Below, in pieces: positions 25,335 to 37,118 of a DNA stretch of 51,719 nucleotides. Source of the stretch: Pseudomonadota bacterium. GTDB lineage: Bacteria > Pseudomonadota > Alphaproteobacteria > RF32 > CAG-239. The stretch spans positions 5,336 through 57,054 of the forward strand of contig JAUNPO010000001.1 in NCBI GenBank assembly GCA_030536665.1, read 5' to 3'. Position 1 is the stretch's first letter. Each line of letters opens with the position of its first letter. The notes beneath the pieces are model-generated. The model did not search any database and was not told the origin of the DNA. It was given only the letters and a program-made list of their open reading frames with translations. The position numbers and the translations under genes are program-made.

Positions 25335-26258
25335 TTAAAATTCTAAAATAGCTCGAACAGTATCATAAACATGAGCTTTTTTATCTTTTGTATCATCACT
25401 GACCATATCGAAATATCCATCAGTATTAGCATCAAAAGTCCATGCCAGAGAAGAGCTTCTTTCTGACGATGACCATATATTTTCATAAATTTCTGGAGAA
25501 CCGCCGAATCCGATTTTTACTCCGCCTAGTTTTTCAATTGTATTATTTACATTAGTAAAATTTTTTGAGTTATTTAGATTATTTAATAGTTCATAAGATG
25601 GTAGACACCATTTTTTATTAGGCGGAGTTCCTTGGGGAGAATAATTATATGCCGCATTAGCTGCTGAAAATCTGGTTCCTTTTTTTACAAGCTTTTCTGT
25701 ATTAGAGCAACTTGCATCAATATTTCTGTCTGAGATACCAGTTTCATATGGAAAACCGGTATCCCATGCAATATCTTTTTCTATATAGCTGATTGACATA
25801 ATATATCCGCCAATTCCTGAAGTATTTACATAAATTACTACGCCTAAAGGCGTTTTGGTCTTATCTATATTATTAGAACAGGAATTATCAGAATAATAGA
25901 TCCAACCAACTTGACAAGCAGGGCGAGAATTTTTCTCGCATTTGCCATTGCTCCATTCATAACCGGAAGCACAGTTACAAGAGGCATATTTATTATTGCA
26001 GGCCTGCCCGGCACCGGAGGAGTAACCAGTTCCTTTGCAATCATATTTAAAACCGCTTTTAAGACAAGTATCGGAGCAGCAGGCAAAAGTATTTCCGAAA
26101 GGACATCTGATGCCTTTTCCGTCAGGACAGGACGTTTCTGTGTAGCCTAGCGAAGCACAATCAGTTGTGGCAACACATTGGGCATTTGTTAAGTTTGGAA
26201 TTAAGGACAGACTCGTCCCCAAGAGTAAAAATTTAAGATTAATATTCATATTGAACAT
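25335..26258 (-). CDS. Secreted Cys-rich protein with a DUF1566-like (Lcl C-terminal-like) domain, paralog B
   Basis: Signal peptide M(FNM)NINLKFLLLGTSLSLIPNLTNA|QC, then a Cys-rich segment. The body contains KKWCLPSYELLNNL and the C-terminus is …VRAILEF. The second ATG at 26249 has the better Shine-Dalgarno spacing. Confidence 0.65.
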   Translation of the reverse strand: MFNMNINLKFLLLGTSLSLIPNLTNAQCVATTDCASLGYTETSCPDGKGIRCPFGNTFACCSDTCLKSGFKYDCKGTGYSSGAGQACNNKYASCNCASGYEWSNGKCEKNSRPACQVGWIYYSDNSCSNNIDKTKTPLGVVIYVNTSGIGGYIMSISYIEKDIAWDTGFPYETGISDRNIDASCSNTEKLVKKGTRFSAANAAYNYSPQGTPPNKKWCLPSYELLNNLNNSKNFTNVNNTIEKLGGVKIGFGGSPEIYENIWSSSERSSSLAWTFDANTDGYFDMVSDDTKDKKAHVYDTVRAILEF

Positions 26259-26496
26259 CCTTTGTTTTTTTTAGGTTAAAACAAAACCCGCTTCAATTAA
26301 GAAGGCGGGCGGATGTTCAGAAACCGTAACTTAGTAAACGGCTCGGCTTATTTGGCCGAAACCTTATTCGCCGACATCCGTCCCTAGCACATACCTAGAC
26401 AGATATCAGCACATACTTATTTTAAGTCGCAATCATGCTTGACGACTACTAAGTTTAAAGGGTTTCTGACGCCCTGAGCAGTTAACACAACTGCCT
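26259..26496 (-). ncRNA. Candidate structured 5' leader / riboswitch-like RNA, copy B
   Basis: It aligns with 36070-36293 on the opposite strand. Its hairpins covary with copy A. It ends in an intrinsic terminator (26278-26309) about 20-30 nt before the start codon. Confidence 0.55.
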
Positions 26497-26502
26497 GTAA
26501 AC

Positions 26503-26531
26503 AGAGTAACACAGGAGGATGTTTGTTGCAA
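26503..26531 (-). promoter_or_regulatory. Putative promoter of leader copy B (TTGCAA-N17-TACTCT)
   Basis: It has the same architecture and position as TTGCTA-N17-TACCCT in copy A. Confidence 0.45.
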
Positions 26532-26557
26532 TCTTTTATTTTTTTAGGACAAAAGCT

Positions 26558-26589
26558 ATAAAAAACCTCCCAAATCATTTTTGGGAGGG
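26558..26589 (-). terminator. Intrinsic terminator after the DUF1796-like gene
   Basis: On the minus strand, ccctcccaaaaatgatttgggagg is followed by tttttt. Confidence 0.7.
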
Positions 26590-26595
26590 AAAATA

Positions 26596-27369
26596 TTAGT
26601 TATTGTCGAATTGCTGCGTTGAAATTTGTAATTTCTTGCGAATGGATTTTCTGACTTTTTTTATCGGAATCAAGCAGCACAAGGCGTTGACAACAGTGCG
26701 TTTGACGGCAAAAAGCTTTTTATGCAGCAGTGTTTTGGCCAAATCTTTTTGTGACGAAAGCTTTCGGTCTTTCAAAATCGTTTTAAATTCTTCTTTTTTA
26801 TCAGAATAAAGATCTTTTTTATTGTCAAATTCCAAGCGGACAAAGGTAACGTTTTTATTTAATTCTTTTATTTCCATACCCTTGTAGTCAGCTTTCATAT
26901 CAACGACAATAACGTCAATATTTTTTCCCGGAAATCTCTGTTGCAGAAGTTTCTGCGCTTCAACGGCATCTTCTTCCCGAACCGGCTCGTTGCTGGTGTT
27001 CATGAAAAGGACGTTTTTGGCGCTCTCAACATATTCATAAACGCGTTGAATCCGGCGCTCAAACATCGCTTTGGCTTTTTTGCAAGCTTCGTCAAACGGC
27101 AGATCTTTTTCAACGCAATGATAAAACAAATAATGCTCAGGGTACTGCGTATAAGGAAGGTGGTTGCCGTTTTCTCCCTCAACCCGTTTCAGCTGTTCGG
27201 CGATAAAATAATTCTTAAATCCGTTGGCAACCAAAGTTGCCGGAATTGTAACATTATCAAAACCAACCCAGTCAAACGGATATGATTCCAATTGCAGATT
27301 GTTATGACGCAAATGGAAAGAAGCGGAACAAAAATTCCCGAGGGGAATGGCAACGTCATATTTTCTCAT
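26596..27369 (-). CDS. DUF1796-like (putative papain-like peptidase fold) protein with a basic C-terminal IPxKKxRK tail
   Basis: The N-terminus reads IPLGNFCSASFHLR…SYPFDWVG, as I recall for DUF1796. The C-terminus is CCLIPIKKVRKSIRKKL. Confidence 0.45.
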   Translation of the reverse strand: MRKYDVAIPLGNFCSASFHLRHNNLQLESYPFDWVGFDNVTIPATLVANGFKNYFIAEQLKRVEGENGNHLPYTQYPEHYLFYHCVEKDLPFDEACKKAKAMFERRIQRVYEYVESAKNVLFMNTSNEPVREEDAVEAQKLLQQRFPGKNIDVIVVDMKADYKGMEIKELNKNVTFVRLEFDNKKDLYSDKKEEFKTILKDRKLSSQKDLAKTLLHKKLFAVKRTVVNALCCLIPIKKVRKSIRKKLQISTQQFDNN

Positions 27370-30065: not shown

Positions 30066-30158
30066 AAAAGGCGGAGGAACACTGACCTTAATCGGTTCGT
30101 TACGGCTGCTTTCTTCCGAACCTGACCGGGTTGGCGAAAGATTAACCCAATGCCCTCC
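30066..30158 (-). ncRNA. ffs: Signal recognition particle RNA (4.5S, small type)
   Basis: The minus strand reads GGAGGGCAUUGGGUUAAUCUUUCGCCAACCCGGUCAGGUUCGGAAGAAAGCAGCCGUAACGAACCGAUUAAGGUCAGUGUUCCUCC. It contains the conserved GGUCAGGU.CGGAAG.AAGCAGCC domain IV core, and the 5' and 3' ends pair. It sits in the classical position upstream of dnaX. The ends are approximate. Confidence 0.8.
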
Positions 30159-30164
30159 ATTGAC

Positions 30165-36033: not shown

Positions 36034-36062
36034 TTGCTAAAATAACACCCCTGTGCTACCCT
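36034..36062 (+). promoter_or_regulatory. Putative promoter of leader copy A (TTGCTA-N17-TACCCT)
   Basis: It is conserved in position and architecture with copy B. Confidence 0.45.
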
Positions 36063-36069
36063 TTATTTT

Positions 36070-36293
36070 AAGCGGCAGAGTTTGCCGCCGAGGGCGTCGA
36101 AACCCTTTGTTCTTAGCGGTCGTCAAGCATAATTGCGACTTTAAATAAGTATATGCTGATATCTGTCCATGTGCTAGAGGCGGATGTCAGCGTTATAAGG
36201 CTTTGCACGAAAGCGCTGAGCCGTTTGCTAAGACACGGTTTCGAACATCCGCCCGCCTTTAAAAGCGGGTTTTGTTTTAACTGGAAACAAAGG
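36070..36293 (+). ncRNA. Candidate structured 5' leader / riboswitch-like RNA, copy A
   Basis: It shows several hairpins that covary with copy B. The first is gcggca-gagtt-tgccgc at 36072-36088. A long-range pairing joins ggcggatgt at 36179-36187 with acatccgcc at 36245-36253. A third pairing is tcagcg/cgctga. A terminator (cccgc…gcggg+ttttgtttt) lies at 36252-36278. The ORF-track extension from 36153 overlaps it and is probably not translated. Confidence 0.55.
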
Positions 36294-37118
36294 ATGTTCA
36301 ACATGAATATTAATCTTAAATTTCTACTCTTAGAAACAACACTGTCTTTAATTCCAAATTTCTTATATGCACAATGTTCACCGGCTCAAAATTGTGCTGA
36401 ACTCGGCTATATAGAAACTTCCAATAAAGGCGGCTGTTTGAAATGTCCGTTTGGTAATGGATGGTATTGCCCAGATTCCAAAGAAGAAAAAGCTATACTC
36501 GGCGAGTGTAGCGGCTATGCTAAAAACTGTAAAATCGGCGATATCCTTAACAGCGATGGTACTTGTACAACGGATAAAGCAAGTGGTAAGACACCGATAG
36601 GGGTGGTCATTGCCGTCAAAGACGATTGTGGTTGGGCTATAACGGCAAATCCGGTTGCGCAGGGTACACCTTGGTCAACTAAGCCTAATTATACAGTGTT
36701 GCCTATAAATTCCGGAAATATAGCAAATGTGTACGATAATTGTGAATATACAAAAATCATCACCGCTGAGGGTAACAATAACGAATTTCCTGCAGCATGG
36801 GCTGCAATAAACTATGCGCCGACAGCCGCGCCGGAAACCAAAGGAAAATGGTGTCTTCCTGCTCCGGGAATAATGAATGATTTATTTCCGTACCTCAATG
36901 AGGTTAACAATGCAATAGCAAAACTAAGCGGAACGGTTCTCACGGCTCAAATAGGCCCGGAATCATATGTAGACAGAAATGAACACCTCTGGTTATCTGT
37001 TGAGGGCGATAATCTGAACGCTTATTATTTTTGCGCAGCCTGTCCAACGTTTATTAGCAATACAGCCAAGAAGAACTATCTTACGACATTTACGGTGCGC
37101 CCGGTACTGGCCTTTTAA
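36294..37118 (+). CDS. Secreted Cys-rich protein with a DUF1566-like domain, paralog A
   Basis: Signal peptide M(FNM)NINLKFLLLETTLSLIPNFLYA|QC. The body contains GKWCLPAPGIMNDL and the C-terminus is …VRPVLAF. An alternative start is at 36303. Confidence 0.65.
   Translation: MFNMNINLKFLLLETTLSLIPNFLYAQCSPAQNCAELGYIETSNKGGCLKCPFGNGWYCPDSKEEKAILGECSGYAKNCKIGDILNSDGTCTTDKASGKTPIGVVIAVKDDCGWAITANPVAQGTPWSTKPNYTVLPINSGNIANVYDNCEYTKIITAEGNNNEFPAAWAAINYAPTAAPETKGKWCLPAPGIMNDLFPYLNEVNNAIAKLSGTVLTAQIGPESYVDRNEHLWLSVEGDNLNAYYFCAACPTFISNTAKKNYLTTFTVRPVLAF

What the first reader, a model, noticed from the sequence alone, without database searches (positions are those of the whole stretch)
26259..26531. 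Second, inverted copy of the structured leader RNA (copy B)
This minus-strand copy has the same layout as copy A. It has a TTGCAA-N17-TACTCT promoter and a first hairpin gcagtt-gtgtt-aactgc. It shares the conserved blocks agggcgtcagaaaccct, gtcgtcaagcatgattgcgac and gctgatatctgtc. Its terminator (cccgc(c)ttc…gaagcggg followed by a U run) lies at 26278-26309, and the gene starts immediately afterwards.

The terminator loops differ between the copies (ctttaaaa in A, ttaatt in B), while the stem and U tract are preserved. Retention of two diverged yet structurally equivalent copies argues for function rather than a recent duplication remnant.
Basis: seen in the sequence. Interest (0 to 1): 0.65.

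Follow-up and report, generated by a model that had tools for sequence, protein, structure and literature searches.

The report
C4-like terminator-switch leader RNA, copy B
This is a real, roughly 230-base structured RNA leader in front of a secreted adhesin-like gene; dozens of such leaders occur per genome in gut Alphaproteobacteria, and it is built like the phage P1 C4 / sRNA-Xcc1 immunity RNAs but wired to a transcription terminator, with a different internal pairing "barcode" in almost every copy.

Summary
Window 26278-26531 (-) holds a promoter-like site, a hairpin, a highly structured ~220-nt RNA and an intrinsic terminator, about 30 nt before a gene. Copy A (36034-36278, +) is 87% identical.

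It is one member of a large leader family. I found more than 80 distinct leaders, in two classes, in gut alphaproteobacterial MAGs and human-gut metagenomes. Nearly all precede paralogues of one secreted Cys-rich protein whose C-terminal domain resembles the Legionella Lcl adhesin domain. One MAG contributes 42 of the 80 loci kept.

Covariation supports two mutually exclusive folds:
- A helix P4 plus the terminator.
- A three-way junction (J, a, b) whose 3' strand overlaps the terminator stem.

Two long-range helices, PK1 and PK2, differ between copies but stay complementary.

The junction scores 30-35 bits against Rfam sRNA-Xcc1 (cut-off 53). Its layout matches the a1/b1-C4 arrangement of phage P1, and I find the same arrangement around genuine sRNA-Xcc1 cores upstream of prophage antirepressor genes. 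The leader lacks their downstream a2/b2 target at the ribosome-binding site. It adds P4 and a terminator instead.

Best reading: a cis-acting termination/antitermination leader, a new variant of the C4/sRNA-Xcc1 kind. The trigger is unknown.

The parts
26503..26531 (-). Promoter-like site: TTGCAA, 17-nt spacer, TACTCT (with TG upstream, so an extended -10). The inferred transcription start is near 26496.
   Evidence: Sequence read. The elements keep their position in most of 54 distinct upstream regions of relatives. They fall below the threshold of the simple consensus scan. The upstream gene has its own terminator at 26566-26588.
26478..26494 (-). P1 hairpin, GCAGTT-gtgtt-AACTGC.
   Evidence: All 6 pairs show changes on both sides across the family, and 99.2% of cells are paired. 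Copy A has GCGGCA/TGCCGC.
26459..26475 (-). P2 hairpin, AGGG-CGT CAGAAA-CCCT. Its loop carries the PK2 5' strand (the a1-like site, CAGAAA, 26463-68).
   Evidence: PK2 columns 41-45 pair with columns 239-244. Four of the 5 pairs show double changes and 97.5% of cells are paired. There are 16 different loop sequences among 49 leaders of this type. The P2 stem covaries in Aeromonas sRNA-Xcc1 (AGAG/CTCT) and in class II (GGTGT/ACACC).
26448..26455 (-). PK1 5' strand (the b1-like site), AACTTAGT.
   Evidence: It is complementary to the b loop ACTAAGTT. 53 of 57 distinct leaders have 7-9 bp here, with about 40 different sequences. Five of the 6 model pairs show double changes.
26426..26446 (-). P3 hairpin, GTCGTCAAGCATGATTGCGAC, followed by the A/U-rich stretch TTAAAATAAG.
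   Evidence: It is almost invariant within class I (entropy 0.00). The stem changes to GTCGTA/TACGAC in L109. Class II lacks it.
26398..26410 (-). P4 5' strand, GCTGATATCTGTC (the anti-antiterminator strand).
   Evidence: It pairs with 26369-26384. Nine of 13 pairs show double changes and 97.1% of cells are paired.
26369..26384 (-). The 'mid' strand, GGGACGGATGTCGGCG. It is the 3' strand of P4, or alternatively the 5' strands of J and of hairpin a.
   Evidence: Alignment columns 153, 157 and 159 covary with both partners. Column 153 pairs with 112 (UA 48, CG 10) and with 249 (AU 48, GC 12). Column 157 pairs with 109 and with 217. Column 159 pairs with 107 and with 214. Class II shows the same three-way change: CCACC/GGTGG/CTCCAC against CCGCC/GGCGG/CTCCGC.
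26343..26368 (-). Rest of hairpin a: internal loop AATAAG, inner hairpin GGTTTCGGCC, internal loop AAATAA, and the 3' strand GCCGA.
   Evidence: The outer stem has 5 of 6 pairs with double changes. The inner hairpin varies in sequence and length, with UUCG or GCAA loops in relatives. This is the part that aligns to Rfam sRNA-Xcc1.
26323..26342 (-). Hairpin b, GCCGT-tt ACTAAGTT-ACGGT. Its loop is the PK1 3' strand (b'-like).
   Evidence: Three of the 4 stem pairs show double changes: GCCG/CGGT, GCCA/TGGT, GCTGC/GCAGT.
26316..26323 (-). Linker between b and J, TTTCTGAA. It is the PK2 3' strand (a'-like).
26307..26315 (-). J 3' strand, CATCCGCCC (the antiterminator strand). It overlaps the terminator 5' arm by 3 nt.
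   Evidence: 91.5% of J cells are paired. One pair changes on both sides: A-U becomes G-C in 12 leaders. The overlap with the terminator is read directly from the sequence and also holds in bin71 and class II leaders.
26278..26309 (-). Intrinsic terminator: CCCGC(C)TTC-ttaatt-GAAGCGGG plus TTTTGTTTT.
   Evidence: Seven of 9 stem pairs show double changes across the family. It is part of the minimum-free-energy fold.
25335..26262 (-). Regulated gene: SD AAGGA at 26258-62, ATG at 26249, stop at 25335-37. It encodes a secreted Cys-rich protein of 304 aa.
   Evidence: No Pfam family matches. At least 866 homologues exist. The AlphaFold2 C-terminal domain has pLDDT above 90 and matches the Legionella Lcl C-terminal domain 8q4e (E 1.5e-5) and the Bacteroides fimbrial protein 4eps. 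There is no room for a promoter between the U run and the SD.
36034..36278 (+). Copy A of the same leader. PK1 is TCTTAGC/GCTAAGA and PK2 is CGAAA/TTTCG. It lies in front of the paralogue at 36303-37118.
   Evidence: The covariance model scores it 249 bits, against 238 bits for copy B.

Best explanation
Copy B is the 5' leader of the mRNA for a secreted adhesin-like protein, and it works as a transcription termination/antitermination switch.

Transcription starts near 26496. One central strand (26369-84) can pair in two ways.

- OFF state: the central strand pairs with an upstream strand to form helix P4. The downstream strand CATCCGCCC is then left free, the terminator hairpin (26287-309) and its U run form, and transcription stops about 30 nt before the gene.
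- ON state: the central strand pairs with two downstream strands, giving a three-way junction (closing helix J, hairpins a and b). J takes the bottom 2-4 nucleotides of the terminator stem away from the U run, so the polymerase reads into the gene.

Two long-range helices tie the 5' part of the leader to the junction. PK1 joins 26448-55 to the b loop. PK2 joins the P2 loop to the b-J linker. Their sequences differ in nearly every paralogous leader.

The junction with its two antisense-type elements and their upstream partners is the same device as the C4 RNA of phage P1 with its a1/b1 sites, and as Rfam sRNA-Xcc1. Here the downstream a2/b2 target at the ribosome-binding site has been lost, and a P4/terminator platform has been added.

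What is shown: the helices, their mutual exclusivity, the overlap with the terminator, the family, and the architectural relationship. What is inferred: that P4 means OFF and J means ON, and that the RNA acts in cis. What is unknown: the signal that shifts the balance.

My best guess at the signal, with low confidence, is RNA-based and copy-specific, as in C4 immunity. Terminated or processed leader RNA of the same barcode would compete for the a1/b1 sites of nascent transcripts. A protein or a small ligand is about as likely.
For: Structure and switch
- Both folds are supported on 65 distinct leaders.
- Three columns of the central strand covary with both alternative partners.
- The same three-way covariation appears independently in 23 class II leaders.
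- The J 3' strand overlaps the terminator stem in every class.
- Counting nested helices only, the P4 + terminator fold is the minimum-free-energy structure at -86.2 kcal/mol, against -69.2 for the J + a fold. The latter figure omits PK1 and PK2.

Cis action
- The leader sits 150-170 nt before the start codon of a family member in nearly all cases where enough downstream sequence is available.
- There is no space for another promoter.
- A promoter-like site is conserved in position.

Relationship to C4 / sRNA-Xcc1
- sRNA-Xcc1 is the best Rfam match, at 30-35 bits, in both leader classes.
- Genuine sRNA-Xcc1 loci (59-87 bits) have a P2-like hairpin almost identical to ours: AGAGCGTCGAAACTCT against AGGGCGTCGAAACCCT.
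- They also carry upstream complements of the b loop (65 of 87, against 4.9 in permuted controls) and of the linker (55 of 87, against 8.2).
- The P1 record annotates exactly this layout: a1, b1, C4, a2, b2, then icd.
Against: - There is no transcript evidence. No sequencing run holds this organism closely, and the contigs laid only show that the leader is multi-copy.
- The leader fails the Rfam thresholds for sRNA-Xcc1 (35 against 53 bits), and C4 gives no hit at E up to 10.
- J shows only one pair with changes on both sides, and one J position is unpaired in 26 of 65 leaders.
- The J overlap with the terminator is only 2-4 nt, so the size of the effect on termination is uncertain.
- The alignment used was fitted to a model that already contained P1, P2, PK1, P3, P4 and the terminator. 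J, a, b and PK2 were not in that model.
- No signal or sensor has been identified.
Confidence: 0.7

Rival explanations
1. It is a small-molecule or ion riboswitch. The junction together with PK1 and PK2 would form an aptamer, and ligand binding would stabilise J (ON) or P4 (OFF), co-regulating all the paralogues as one regulon.
For: The terminator and antiterminator helices are mutually exclusive, with three-way covariation. Many unpaired nucleotides are strongly conserved, for example the AAUAAG / AAAUAAG internal loops and the linker after P3 (entropy 0.25-0.45 bits). The fold contains pseudoknots. The same core occurs with two kinds of expression platform: a terminator here, and pairing to the ribosome-binding site in phages.
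Against: The closest relatives (C4, and sRNA-Xcc1 as analysed here) work, or appear to work, by antisense pairing to target sites and control phage antirepressors. This does not point to a metabolite. The genes downstream are unrelated to metabolism. A shared ligand does not explain the hypervariable barcodes.
Confidence: 0.2
2. It is mainly a free-standing C4-like small RNA gene. On this reading the about 220-nt terminated product, or a processed core of about 95 nt, is the functional molecule and acts in trans. Read-through into the gene would be incidental or merely a way to express it.
For: The terminator fold is the most stable one. sRNA-Xcc1 was reported as a trans-acting sRNA in PMC2996969 and in Chen et al. 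2011, the latter as cited in bioRxiv 10.1101/2025.06.18.660453. P1 C4 acts in trans (PMC8198154; P1 record). The tail after J (RCC) resembles that of C4. Barcodes are what one expects of specificity determinants.
Against: No a2/b2-like target follows the leader: 3 of 53 leaders have one, against 3.7 in permuted controls. No target was found in the window. The only complements are the leader's own a1/b1 sites. The gene has no other promoter and the linkage to it is near-universal. P4 and the terminator overlap are absent from the phage relatives: 8 of 87 have a P4-like strand, against 6.9 permuted. This indicates an added cis platform.
Confidence: 0.25
3. The conserved upstream region is a DNA-level feature of a variable gene family, not an RNA device. 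It could be a homology box for recombination or gene conversion, or a phase-variation switch that inverts the 10-kb segment between the oppositely oriented copies A and B and so swaps leader halves.
For: Copies A and B are inverted relative to each other, 10 kb apart, and share identical runs of more than 40 nt. Four of 57 leaders in assemblies are chimeras in which PK1 and PK2 are both mismatched. Many contigs break inside the leader.
Against: Compensatory changes in ten helices, including pseudoknots and a terminator, are not expected of a DNA site. Chimeras and contig breaks are the usual behaviour of short-read assemblers at repeats. No read-level evidence could be obtained.
Confidence: 0.08
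4. A dedicated RNA-binding antiterminator protein, or a general factor such as Hfq or ProQ, reads the conserved sequence of P3, the P4 5' strand or the junction loops and sets the P4/J balance for all copies together.
For: P1, P3, b and the P4 5' strand are almost invariant within a genome even though they are simple helices (entropy 0-0.3 bits). This suggests sequence-specific recognition. The part of P1 that corresponds to the 5' domain also scores as isrK, an Hfq-binding RNA (35 bits, below its cut-off).
Against: No candidate protein gene is linked to the leaders, and the loci are scattered. Invariance could also come from gene conversion.
Confidence: 0.2

Closest known systems
C4 antisense RNA with its a1/b1 and a2/b2 sites, immI operon of phages P1/P7 (Rfam RF01695 and RF03163 c4-a1b1, clan CL00128)
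   Same: The topology is the same: a closing helix, two hairpins, and a single-stranded linker of about 7 nt before the 3' strand of the closing helix (structure lines).

The second hairpin loop (b') and the linker (a') are complementary to two upstream sites in the order a1 then b1, and a1 sits in the loop of a small hairpin. P1 has TTGACAG and GTTAGTG; copy B has CAGAAA and AACTTAGT.

These sites vary between relatives while staying complementary. From my own knowledge, not tested here, this variation is the basis of P1/P7 heteroimmunity (Citron and Schuster 1990).

The RNA lies on the same transcript, upstream of the genes it governs.
   Different: The C4 covariance model gives no match. 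The a2/b2 target copy at the ribosome-binding site is absent. The leader has an extra helix P4 that competes with J, and an intrinsic terminator that overlaps J. Neither is found in the phage relatives.

The setting also differs. These leaders are chromosomal and reach tens of copies per genome, in front of secreted adhesin-like genes and not an icd-ant antirepressor operon. The leader pattern occurs in no viral contig.
sRNA-Xcc1 (Rfam RF02221), reported as an integron-encoded trans-acting sRNA of Xanthomonas campestris; upstream of symE in Xanthomonas integron cassettes
   Same: It is the best Rfam match to the junction in class I and class II leaders, at 30-35 bits. Shared sequence features include the AAUA ... 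GAAUAA internal loops of hairpin a and GCCGU...ACGGUU in hairpin b.

In genuine sRNA-Xcc1 loci I find the same upstream P2 hairpin (near-identical in Aeromonas) and the same upstream complements of the b loop and the linker.
   Different: The score is below the gathering threshold of 53 bits. Genuine members carry a second copy of the b-loop complement that abuts the SD of the next gene (50 of 87, against 2.6 in permuted controls; usually 7-12 nt before the start codon).

Those next genes, in the sample I scanned, encode antirepressor-type proteins (AntA/B, P22_AR, Bro-N, ORF6N, Rha). The published context is symE (bioRxiv 10.1101/2025.06.18.660453).

The Rfam model covers only the 87-nt core. 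The leader studied here is about 220 nt and ends in a terminator.
Transcriptional riboswitches and other terminator/antiterminator leaders (T-box, PyrR and BglG-type RAT sites)
   Same: The logic is anti-antiterminator / antiterminator / terminator, with one strand shared between alternative helices. The leader acts in cis, just upstream of the regulated gene.
   Different: No ligand, tRNA or protein partner is known. No Rfam riboswitch or leader family matches. No conserved leader peptide with an SD is present: the AUG within P4 exists only in one subtype. The per-copy barcodes have no counterpart in riboswitches.

Membership tests
Rfam sRNA-Xcc1 (RF02221) | Covariance-model score at or above the curated gathering score of 53 bits | tested here: not met
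   Copy B scores 35.0 bits at 26299-26383. Relatives L072, L040 and L014 score 30-33 bits. Genuine members score 59-87 bits.
Rfam sRNA-Xcc1 (RF02221) | Three-way junction: a closing helix, hairpin a with an internal loop and inner hairpin, hairpin b, and a linker | tested here: met
   J, a and b are 91-97% paired, with double changes in 1, 5 and 3 pairs respectively. None of these helices was part of the search model.
Rfam sRNA-Xcc1 (RF02221), extended layout found here | Upstream complements of the b loop and of the b-J linker, the latter sitting in a hairpin loop | tested here: met
   Genuine members: 65 and 55 of 87, against 4.9 and 8.2 in permuted controls. Leaders here: 53 of 57 have both pairings.
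Rfam sRNA-Xcc1 (RF02221), extended layout found here | A second b-loop complement that abuts the SD of the downstream gene | tested here: not met
   3 of 53 leaders, against 3.7 in permuted controls. Genuine members: 50 of 87, against 2.6.
C4 antisense RNA / c4-a1b1 (RF01695, RF03163) | A match to the C4 or c4-a1b1 covariance models | tested here: not met
   Neither model appears among matches with E up to 10 in 25900-26900. P1 itself scores 68.8 and 51 bits.
C4 antisense RNA / c4-a1b1 | a' in the linker and b' in the loop of hairpin 2, complementary to a1 (in a hairpin loop) and b1 upstream on the same transcript | tested here: met
   P1 annotation and sequence. Copy B coordinates. Family statistics.
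C4 antisense RNA / c4-a1b1 | a2/b2 target sites covering the ribosome-binding site of the next gene, which belongs to an antirepressor operon | tested here: not met
   One search shows there is no downstream complement. The downstream gene is adhesin-like.
C4 antisense RNA / c4-a1b1 | Excision of a roughly 77-nt RNA by RNase P, followed by action in trans (from memory: Hartmann et al. 1995; Citron and Schuster 1990) | not testable with these tools
   An RCC tail follows J, as in C4, but no RNA data are available.
Transcriptional riboswitch | Mutually exclusive terminator and antiterminator helices that share a strand | tested here: met
   Three-way covariation in class I and in class II. Overlap of J with the terminator.
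Transcriptional riboswitch | An aptamer that binds a small ligand | not testable with these tools
   No known riboswitch family matches.
Leader-peptide attenuator | A conserved short ORF with an SD inside the leader | tested here: not met
   The AUG in the P4 5' strand has no SD, gives peptides of varying length, and is absent from the bin71 and class II leaders.

The most novel reading that the evidence does not exclude
Each of the 40 or more paralogous adhesin-like genes in a genome would carry its own self-addressed C4-type RNA. The hypervariable PK1/PK2 barcodes would be specificity determinants kept different by selection, like P1/P7 heteroimmunity but between genes of one chromosome.

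Terminated or processed leader RNA would then feed back only on nascent transcripts of the same gene, by competing for their a1/b1 sites and shifting the P4/J decision.

The result would be an RNA-barcoded system that controls the members of a surface-protein family individually. Recombination between leaders could add a second layer, because mismatched barcodes, as in the chimeras seen, would lock a gene in one state. It would amount to a new kind of variation mechanism, derived from a phage immunity module.
Probability: 0.2. Interest if true: 0.9.

Novelty: new variant of a known kind. Interest (0 to 1): 0.72.

Why it matters
The C4 RNA of P1 is a classic of phage immunity, and sRNA-Xcc1 is filed as a trans-acting sRNA of unknown mechanism. 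This finding matters for three reasons.

1. The same RNA architecture has been taken over by a cellular lineage, the gut Alphaproteobacteria, and multiplied to tens of copies per genome as the leader of a family of secreted, probably host-binding proteins.
2. In these leaders the architecture is coupled to an intrinsic terminator through an extra competing helix. That is an expression platform I did not find in the phage relatives.
3. The two antisense-type elements are far more variable than the rest of the RNA yet always complementary within a copy. This makes testable whether RNA "addresses" can insulate many paralogous regulators from each other.

As a by-product, the analysis suggests that sRNA-Xcc1 is a C4-type regulator of prophage antirepressor translation, with a1/b1 and a2/b2 sites. 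That would change how this Rfam family is read.

Tried and rejected
- **Rfam at curated thresholds.** Nothing matches at the site; the only hit in the window is the SRP RNA.
- **Pfam on the downstream proteins.** No family matches.
- **Leader-peptide attenuation.** Rejected, because there is no conserved ORF or SD.
- **Extended outer helix.** RNAalifold proposed that GGGCGT pairs with ACAYCC. This is not conserved in class II, so I kept the P2 hairpin plus a loop-linker pairing.
- **Downstream a2/b2-like target.** Absent.
- **Trans targets.** Searching the window for a1-b1 combinations returned only the leader itself and the antisense of its own a'/b'. Searching the fetched loci gave only chance-level hits, because the sites are short and about 1 Mb is too small a sample to say anything.
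- **Transcript evidence.** No public run holds the organism closely; the best share of words is 0.15. Laying the contigs of three runs of uncertain type (the tool guessed RNA) showed only fragmented, high-depth pieces over the leader. That is repeat behaviour, not expression data.
- **Phage origin of this leader.** The leader pattern occurs in no viral contig.
- **P4-like strand in phage sRNA-Xcc1 loci.** Not enriched.
- **First DNA pattern for collection scans.** It was too strict and missed most relatives, so I replaced it.
- **Environmental hits.** Seven environmental metagenome matches to the pattern (L085, L104, L141, L143, L144, L146, L151) do not match the covariance model and are most likely chance matches.
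- **Papers on P1 C4.** Two that I tried to read were not held.
Full report
**1. The observation**

Read on the minus strand, window 26531-26230 contains the following:
- TTGCAA, a 17-nt spacer, then TACTCT.
- The hairpin GCAGTT-gtgtt-AACTGC.
- A terminator, CCCGC(C)TTC-ttaatt-GAAGCGGG plus TTTTGTTTT.
- An SD (AAGGA) and the ATG at 26249.

Copy A lies at 36034-36278 on the plus strand and is 87% identical over about 300 nt. Both copies fold much better than shuffled sequence: -86.2 and -85.5 kcal/mol, with z-scores of -6.2 and -5.3. The covariance model built later finds only these two copies in the window.

Some details need correcting. The block AGGGCGTCAGAAACCCT differs from copy A by one base, at a site that turns out to be variable by design. 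The simple consensus scan misses both the promoter and the terminator. The promoter elements nevertheless keep their position in most of 54 distinct relatives. The upstream gene has its own terminator at 26566-88.

**2. A large family, not a pair**

The downstream protein has no Pfam domain, but it has at least 866 homologues, almost all from metagenome assemblies.

A scan of one genome per species found 229 coding stretches, of which 80 were kept. Forty-two of those 80 come from a single MAG labelled uncultured Alphaproteobacteria (BRZ_AG bin71). The rest come from four other MAGs, including 'uncultured Azospirillum sp. UMGS63'. Many contigs end about 50 nt before the gene, as expected if a repeated leader breaks the assembly.

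A profile search and then a covariance model found the leader directly upstream of most paralogues that have enough flanking sequence. A DNA pattern taken from the leader alone found 77 metagenome stretches, mostly from human gut, and no viral contig. Seventy-four matches to the model came from those stretches.

Nearly all leaders with enough downstream sequence precede a member of the same protein family. There are two exceptions. L109 has a leader in front of a lipoprotein gene, and L138 has one in front of a small membrane protein gene.

A shorter class II leader has the same logic but no P3. It serves other paralogues in the same and in other MAGs, and I found 23 distinct examples.

The protein's C-terminal domain is predicted with pLDDT above 90. 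It resembles the Legionella Lcl C-terminal adhesin domain and a Bacteroides fimbrial protein.

**3. Anatomy**

Comparing the copies shows ten helices. On 65 distinct class I leaders, two alternative structures each keep 96-97% of cells paired. They have 34 of 51 and 24 of 43 pairs changed on both sides. No shuffle out of 500 reaches these values, and slid controls give about 40% paired.

Helices common to both structures:
- P1 and P2.
- P3.
- Hairpin b.
- PK1, which joins 7-9 nt between P2 and P3 to the loop of b.
- PK2, which joins the P2 loop to the linker between b and J.

The two structures differ in the partner of one central strand (26369-84). In one, it pairs with an upstream strand to form P4, where 9 of 13 pairs show double changes. 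In the other, it pairs with two downstream strands to form J and hairpin a, where 5 of 6 pairs in a show double changes.

Three columns of that strand covary with both partners. Class II repeats the pattern with different sequences: CCACC/GGTGG/CTCCAC against CCGCC/GGCGG/CTCCGC.

The 3' strand of J overlaps the bottom of the terminator stem by 2-4 nt in every class. The terminator stem itself covaries.

J, a, b and PK2 were not part of the model used to build the alignment, so their support does not come from fitting.

**4. The barcodes**

Of 57 distinct class I leaders, 53 have a perfect or near-perfect PK1 of 7-9 bp and a PK2 of 5-6 bp. There are about 40 different PK1 sequences and 15 different PK2 sequences.

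The four exceptions break both pairings at once. They combine the 5' half of one known leader with the 3' half of another. They are chimeras, produced either by the assembler or by recombination.

Column entropy at the PK1/PK2 positions is 0.9-1.5 bits. It is 0-0.3 bits in the other stems and 0.25-0.45 bits in unpaired positions.

So these two helices change much faster than everything else, even though each change requires a compensating one. One explanation is that they are the only positions where sequence is free. The other is that difference between copies is selected. I cannot tell which.

**5. How it most likely works**

If P4 forms, the strand CATCCGCCC is free, and the terminator and its U run form about 30 nt before the start codon. 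If J and a form, the base of the terminator stem is withdrawn from the U run and the polymerase should read through.

With nested helices only, the P4 + terminator fold is the minimum-free-energy structure (-86.2 against -69.2 kcal/mol). The calculation cannot credit PK1 and PK2 to the junction fold, so the two states may be closer in energy than that.

There is no room for a promoter between the terminator and the SD. Expression of the gene must therefore depend on read-through.

The assignment of OFF to P4 and ON to J is inferred from the anatomy. The signal is unknown. I found no conserved leader peptide.

**6. What it is related to**

Rfam has no family at the site. In permissive mode, the best match to the junction is sRNA-Xcc1, at 30-35 bits against a cut-off of 53. 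This holds in copy B, in the bin71 leaders and in class II leaders.

I fetched genuine sRNA-Xcc1 loci from plasmid and chromosome records and from viral contigs; they score 59-87 bits. Upstream of the Rfam core they have:
- A P2-like hairpin. In Aeromonas it reads AGAGCGTCGAAACTCT, against AGGGCGTCGAAACCCT here.
- A P2 loop that pairs with the b-J linker.
- After a few more bases, a complement of the b loop.

Across 87 distinct viral cores, the b-loop complement is present upstream in 65 (4.9 in permuted controls) and the linker complement in 55 (8.2 permuted). A second b-loop complement lies downstream in 50 (2.6 permuted). This second copy usually ends 7-12 nt before the start codon, so it abuts the SD. 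In the sample scanned, the genes there encode antirepressor-type proteins.

This is the layout annotated in phage P1: a1 and b1, then the 77-nt C4 RNA, then a2 and b2 at the icd ribosome-binding site, then ant. The C4 model has the same topology as sRNA-Xcc1 and as our junction. C4 is needed to keep ant repressed (PMC8198154). The a1/b1 motif was described as 'a1, b1 targets of C4 antisense RNA' in the supplement of PMC2864571.

**7. Same and different**

The leader shares three things with C4 and sRNA-Xcc1: the junction, the two antisense-type elements, and their upstream partners in the same order.

It differs in four ways:
- It fails both covariance models.
- It has no a2/b2-like site downstream: 3 of 53 leaders against 3.7 permuted, while its own upstream partner is found in 48 of 53.
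- It has the competing helix P4 and a terminator that overlaps J. A P4-like strand is not enriched in the phage loci: 8 of 87 against 6.9 permuted.
- It is chromosomal, multi-copy, and placed before adhesin-like genes.

I therefore call it a new variant of a known kind, not a member of either Rfam family.

**8. What could set the switch**

By analogy with C4, leader RNA that has terminated or been processed could bind the a1/b1 sites of nascent transcripts with the same barcode. That would alter the P4/J choice and give each gene its own feedback, which would explain why barcodes differ between copies. This is speculation; I give it about 0.2.

A small ligand or a protein is about as likely, and either would regulate all copies together.

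I could not obtain transcript data. No public run holds the organism closely, and the contigs laid only confirm that the leader is present in many copies.

A DNA-level role, such as inversion between the oppositely oriented copies A and B, cannot be excluded as an extra layer. It does not explain the covariation.

**9. Verdict**

The element is a cis-acting, two-state terminator leader of the C4/sRNA-Xcc1 architectural kind, multiplied in gut Alphaproteobacteria and carrying copy-specific internal pairings. The structure and the relationship are well supported. The direction of the switch is inferred, and its trigger is open.

Noticed in passing
L158-L262 (plasmid, chromosome and viral contigs holding Rfam sRNA-Xcc1); P1 locus L263: Genuine sRNA-Xcc1 cores have upstream complements of the b loop and the b-J linker. 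They also have a second b-loop complement abutting the SD of the next gene, which encodes an antirepressor-type protein (AntA/B, P22_AR, Bro-N, ORF6N, Rha). This is the a1,b1 / C4 / a2,b2 layout annotated in phage P1, yet Rfam keeps sRNA-Xcc1 outside the C4 clan and lists it as a plain sRNA.
   Followed up: partly
L116:4311-4919 (-) compared with L109:11889-12290 (-): The same divergent leader is intact in L109, in front of a lipoprotein gene. In L116 it is cut at GCGGTTTCTGA, in the b-J linker region, by an insertion carrying a tyrosine-integrase-like gene. A mobile element seems to have integrated into the leader's 3' part.
   Followed up: no
L099:7114-7709 (-), L103:1710-2216 (+), L118, L153:2810-3279 (-): An element of about 330 nt with long terminal inverted repeats (TTAGACCTAAAATATCCC...), resembling a MITE, is inserted in the loop of hairpin b of several leaders. 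It occurs in both orientations.
   Followed up: no
L003, L030, L047, L077 (class I remnants); L023, L048 (class II remnants); L032, L036, L037, L042: A shared cassette replaces the 3' part of leaders. It consists of AAGCTGTGCCAGCTTCACCCCC..., a terminator-like hairpin, a strong TTGAAA-N17-TATACT promoter, and a hairpin that buries the SD GGAG. Some paralogues therefore bypass the leader switch and may be controlled at the level of translation instead.
   Followed up: no
L012:2826-3003, L075:2776-3003: Only the first 110 nt or so of the leader (P1, P2, P3) remain. They are followed by a consensus TTGACC-N17-TATAAT promoter and the gene. This is another way of escaping the switch.
   Followed up: no
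L145:8672-9234 (-): A deletion joins the loop of leader hairpin a directly to the middle of the coding sequence, which makes this paralogue a pseudogene.
   Followed up: no
L124, L125, L155, L157: These are chimeric leaders. The 5' half (a1, b1) comes from one known leader and the 3' half (b', a') from another, so both barcodes mismatch. They may be assembly artefacts or real recombinants between paralogous leaders.
   Followed up: partly
window 26262-26286 (-), and the same place in all leader classes: The terminator U tract (UUUUGUUUU) is complementary to AAAACAAA just 5' of the SD. In read-through transcripts this weak pairing could affect translation initiation.
   Followed up: no
window 30067-30161 (-): A bacterial small SRP RNA, scoring 65.8 bits, which is above its Rfam threshold.
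   Followed up: no
window 26566-26588 (-) and 26596-27369 (-): The gene upstream of copy B encodes a DUF1796 putative papain-like cysteine peptidase. It ends in its own clean intrinsic terminator, so the leader forms a separate transcription unit.
   Followed up: partly
L263:181-262 (phage P1 a1/b1 region): The P1 a1/b1 region also scores 35 bits against isrK, an Hfq-binding RNA of Salmonella prophage Gifsy-1. That is below the isrK cut-off. It hints that isrK-type RNAs correspond to the 5' domain of C4-type modules.
   Followed up: no
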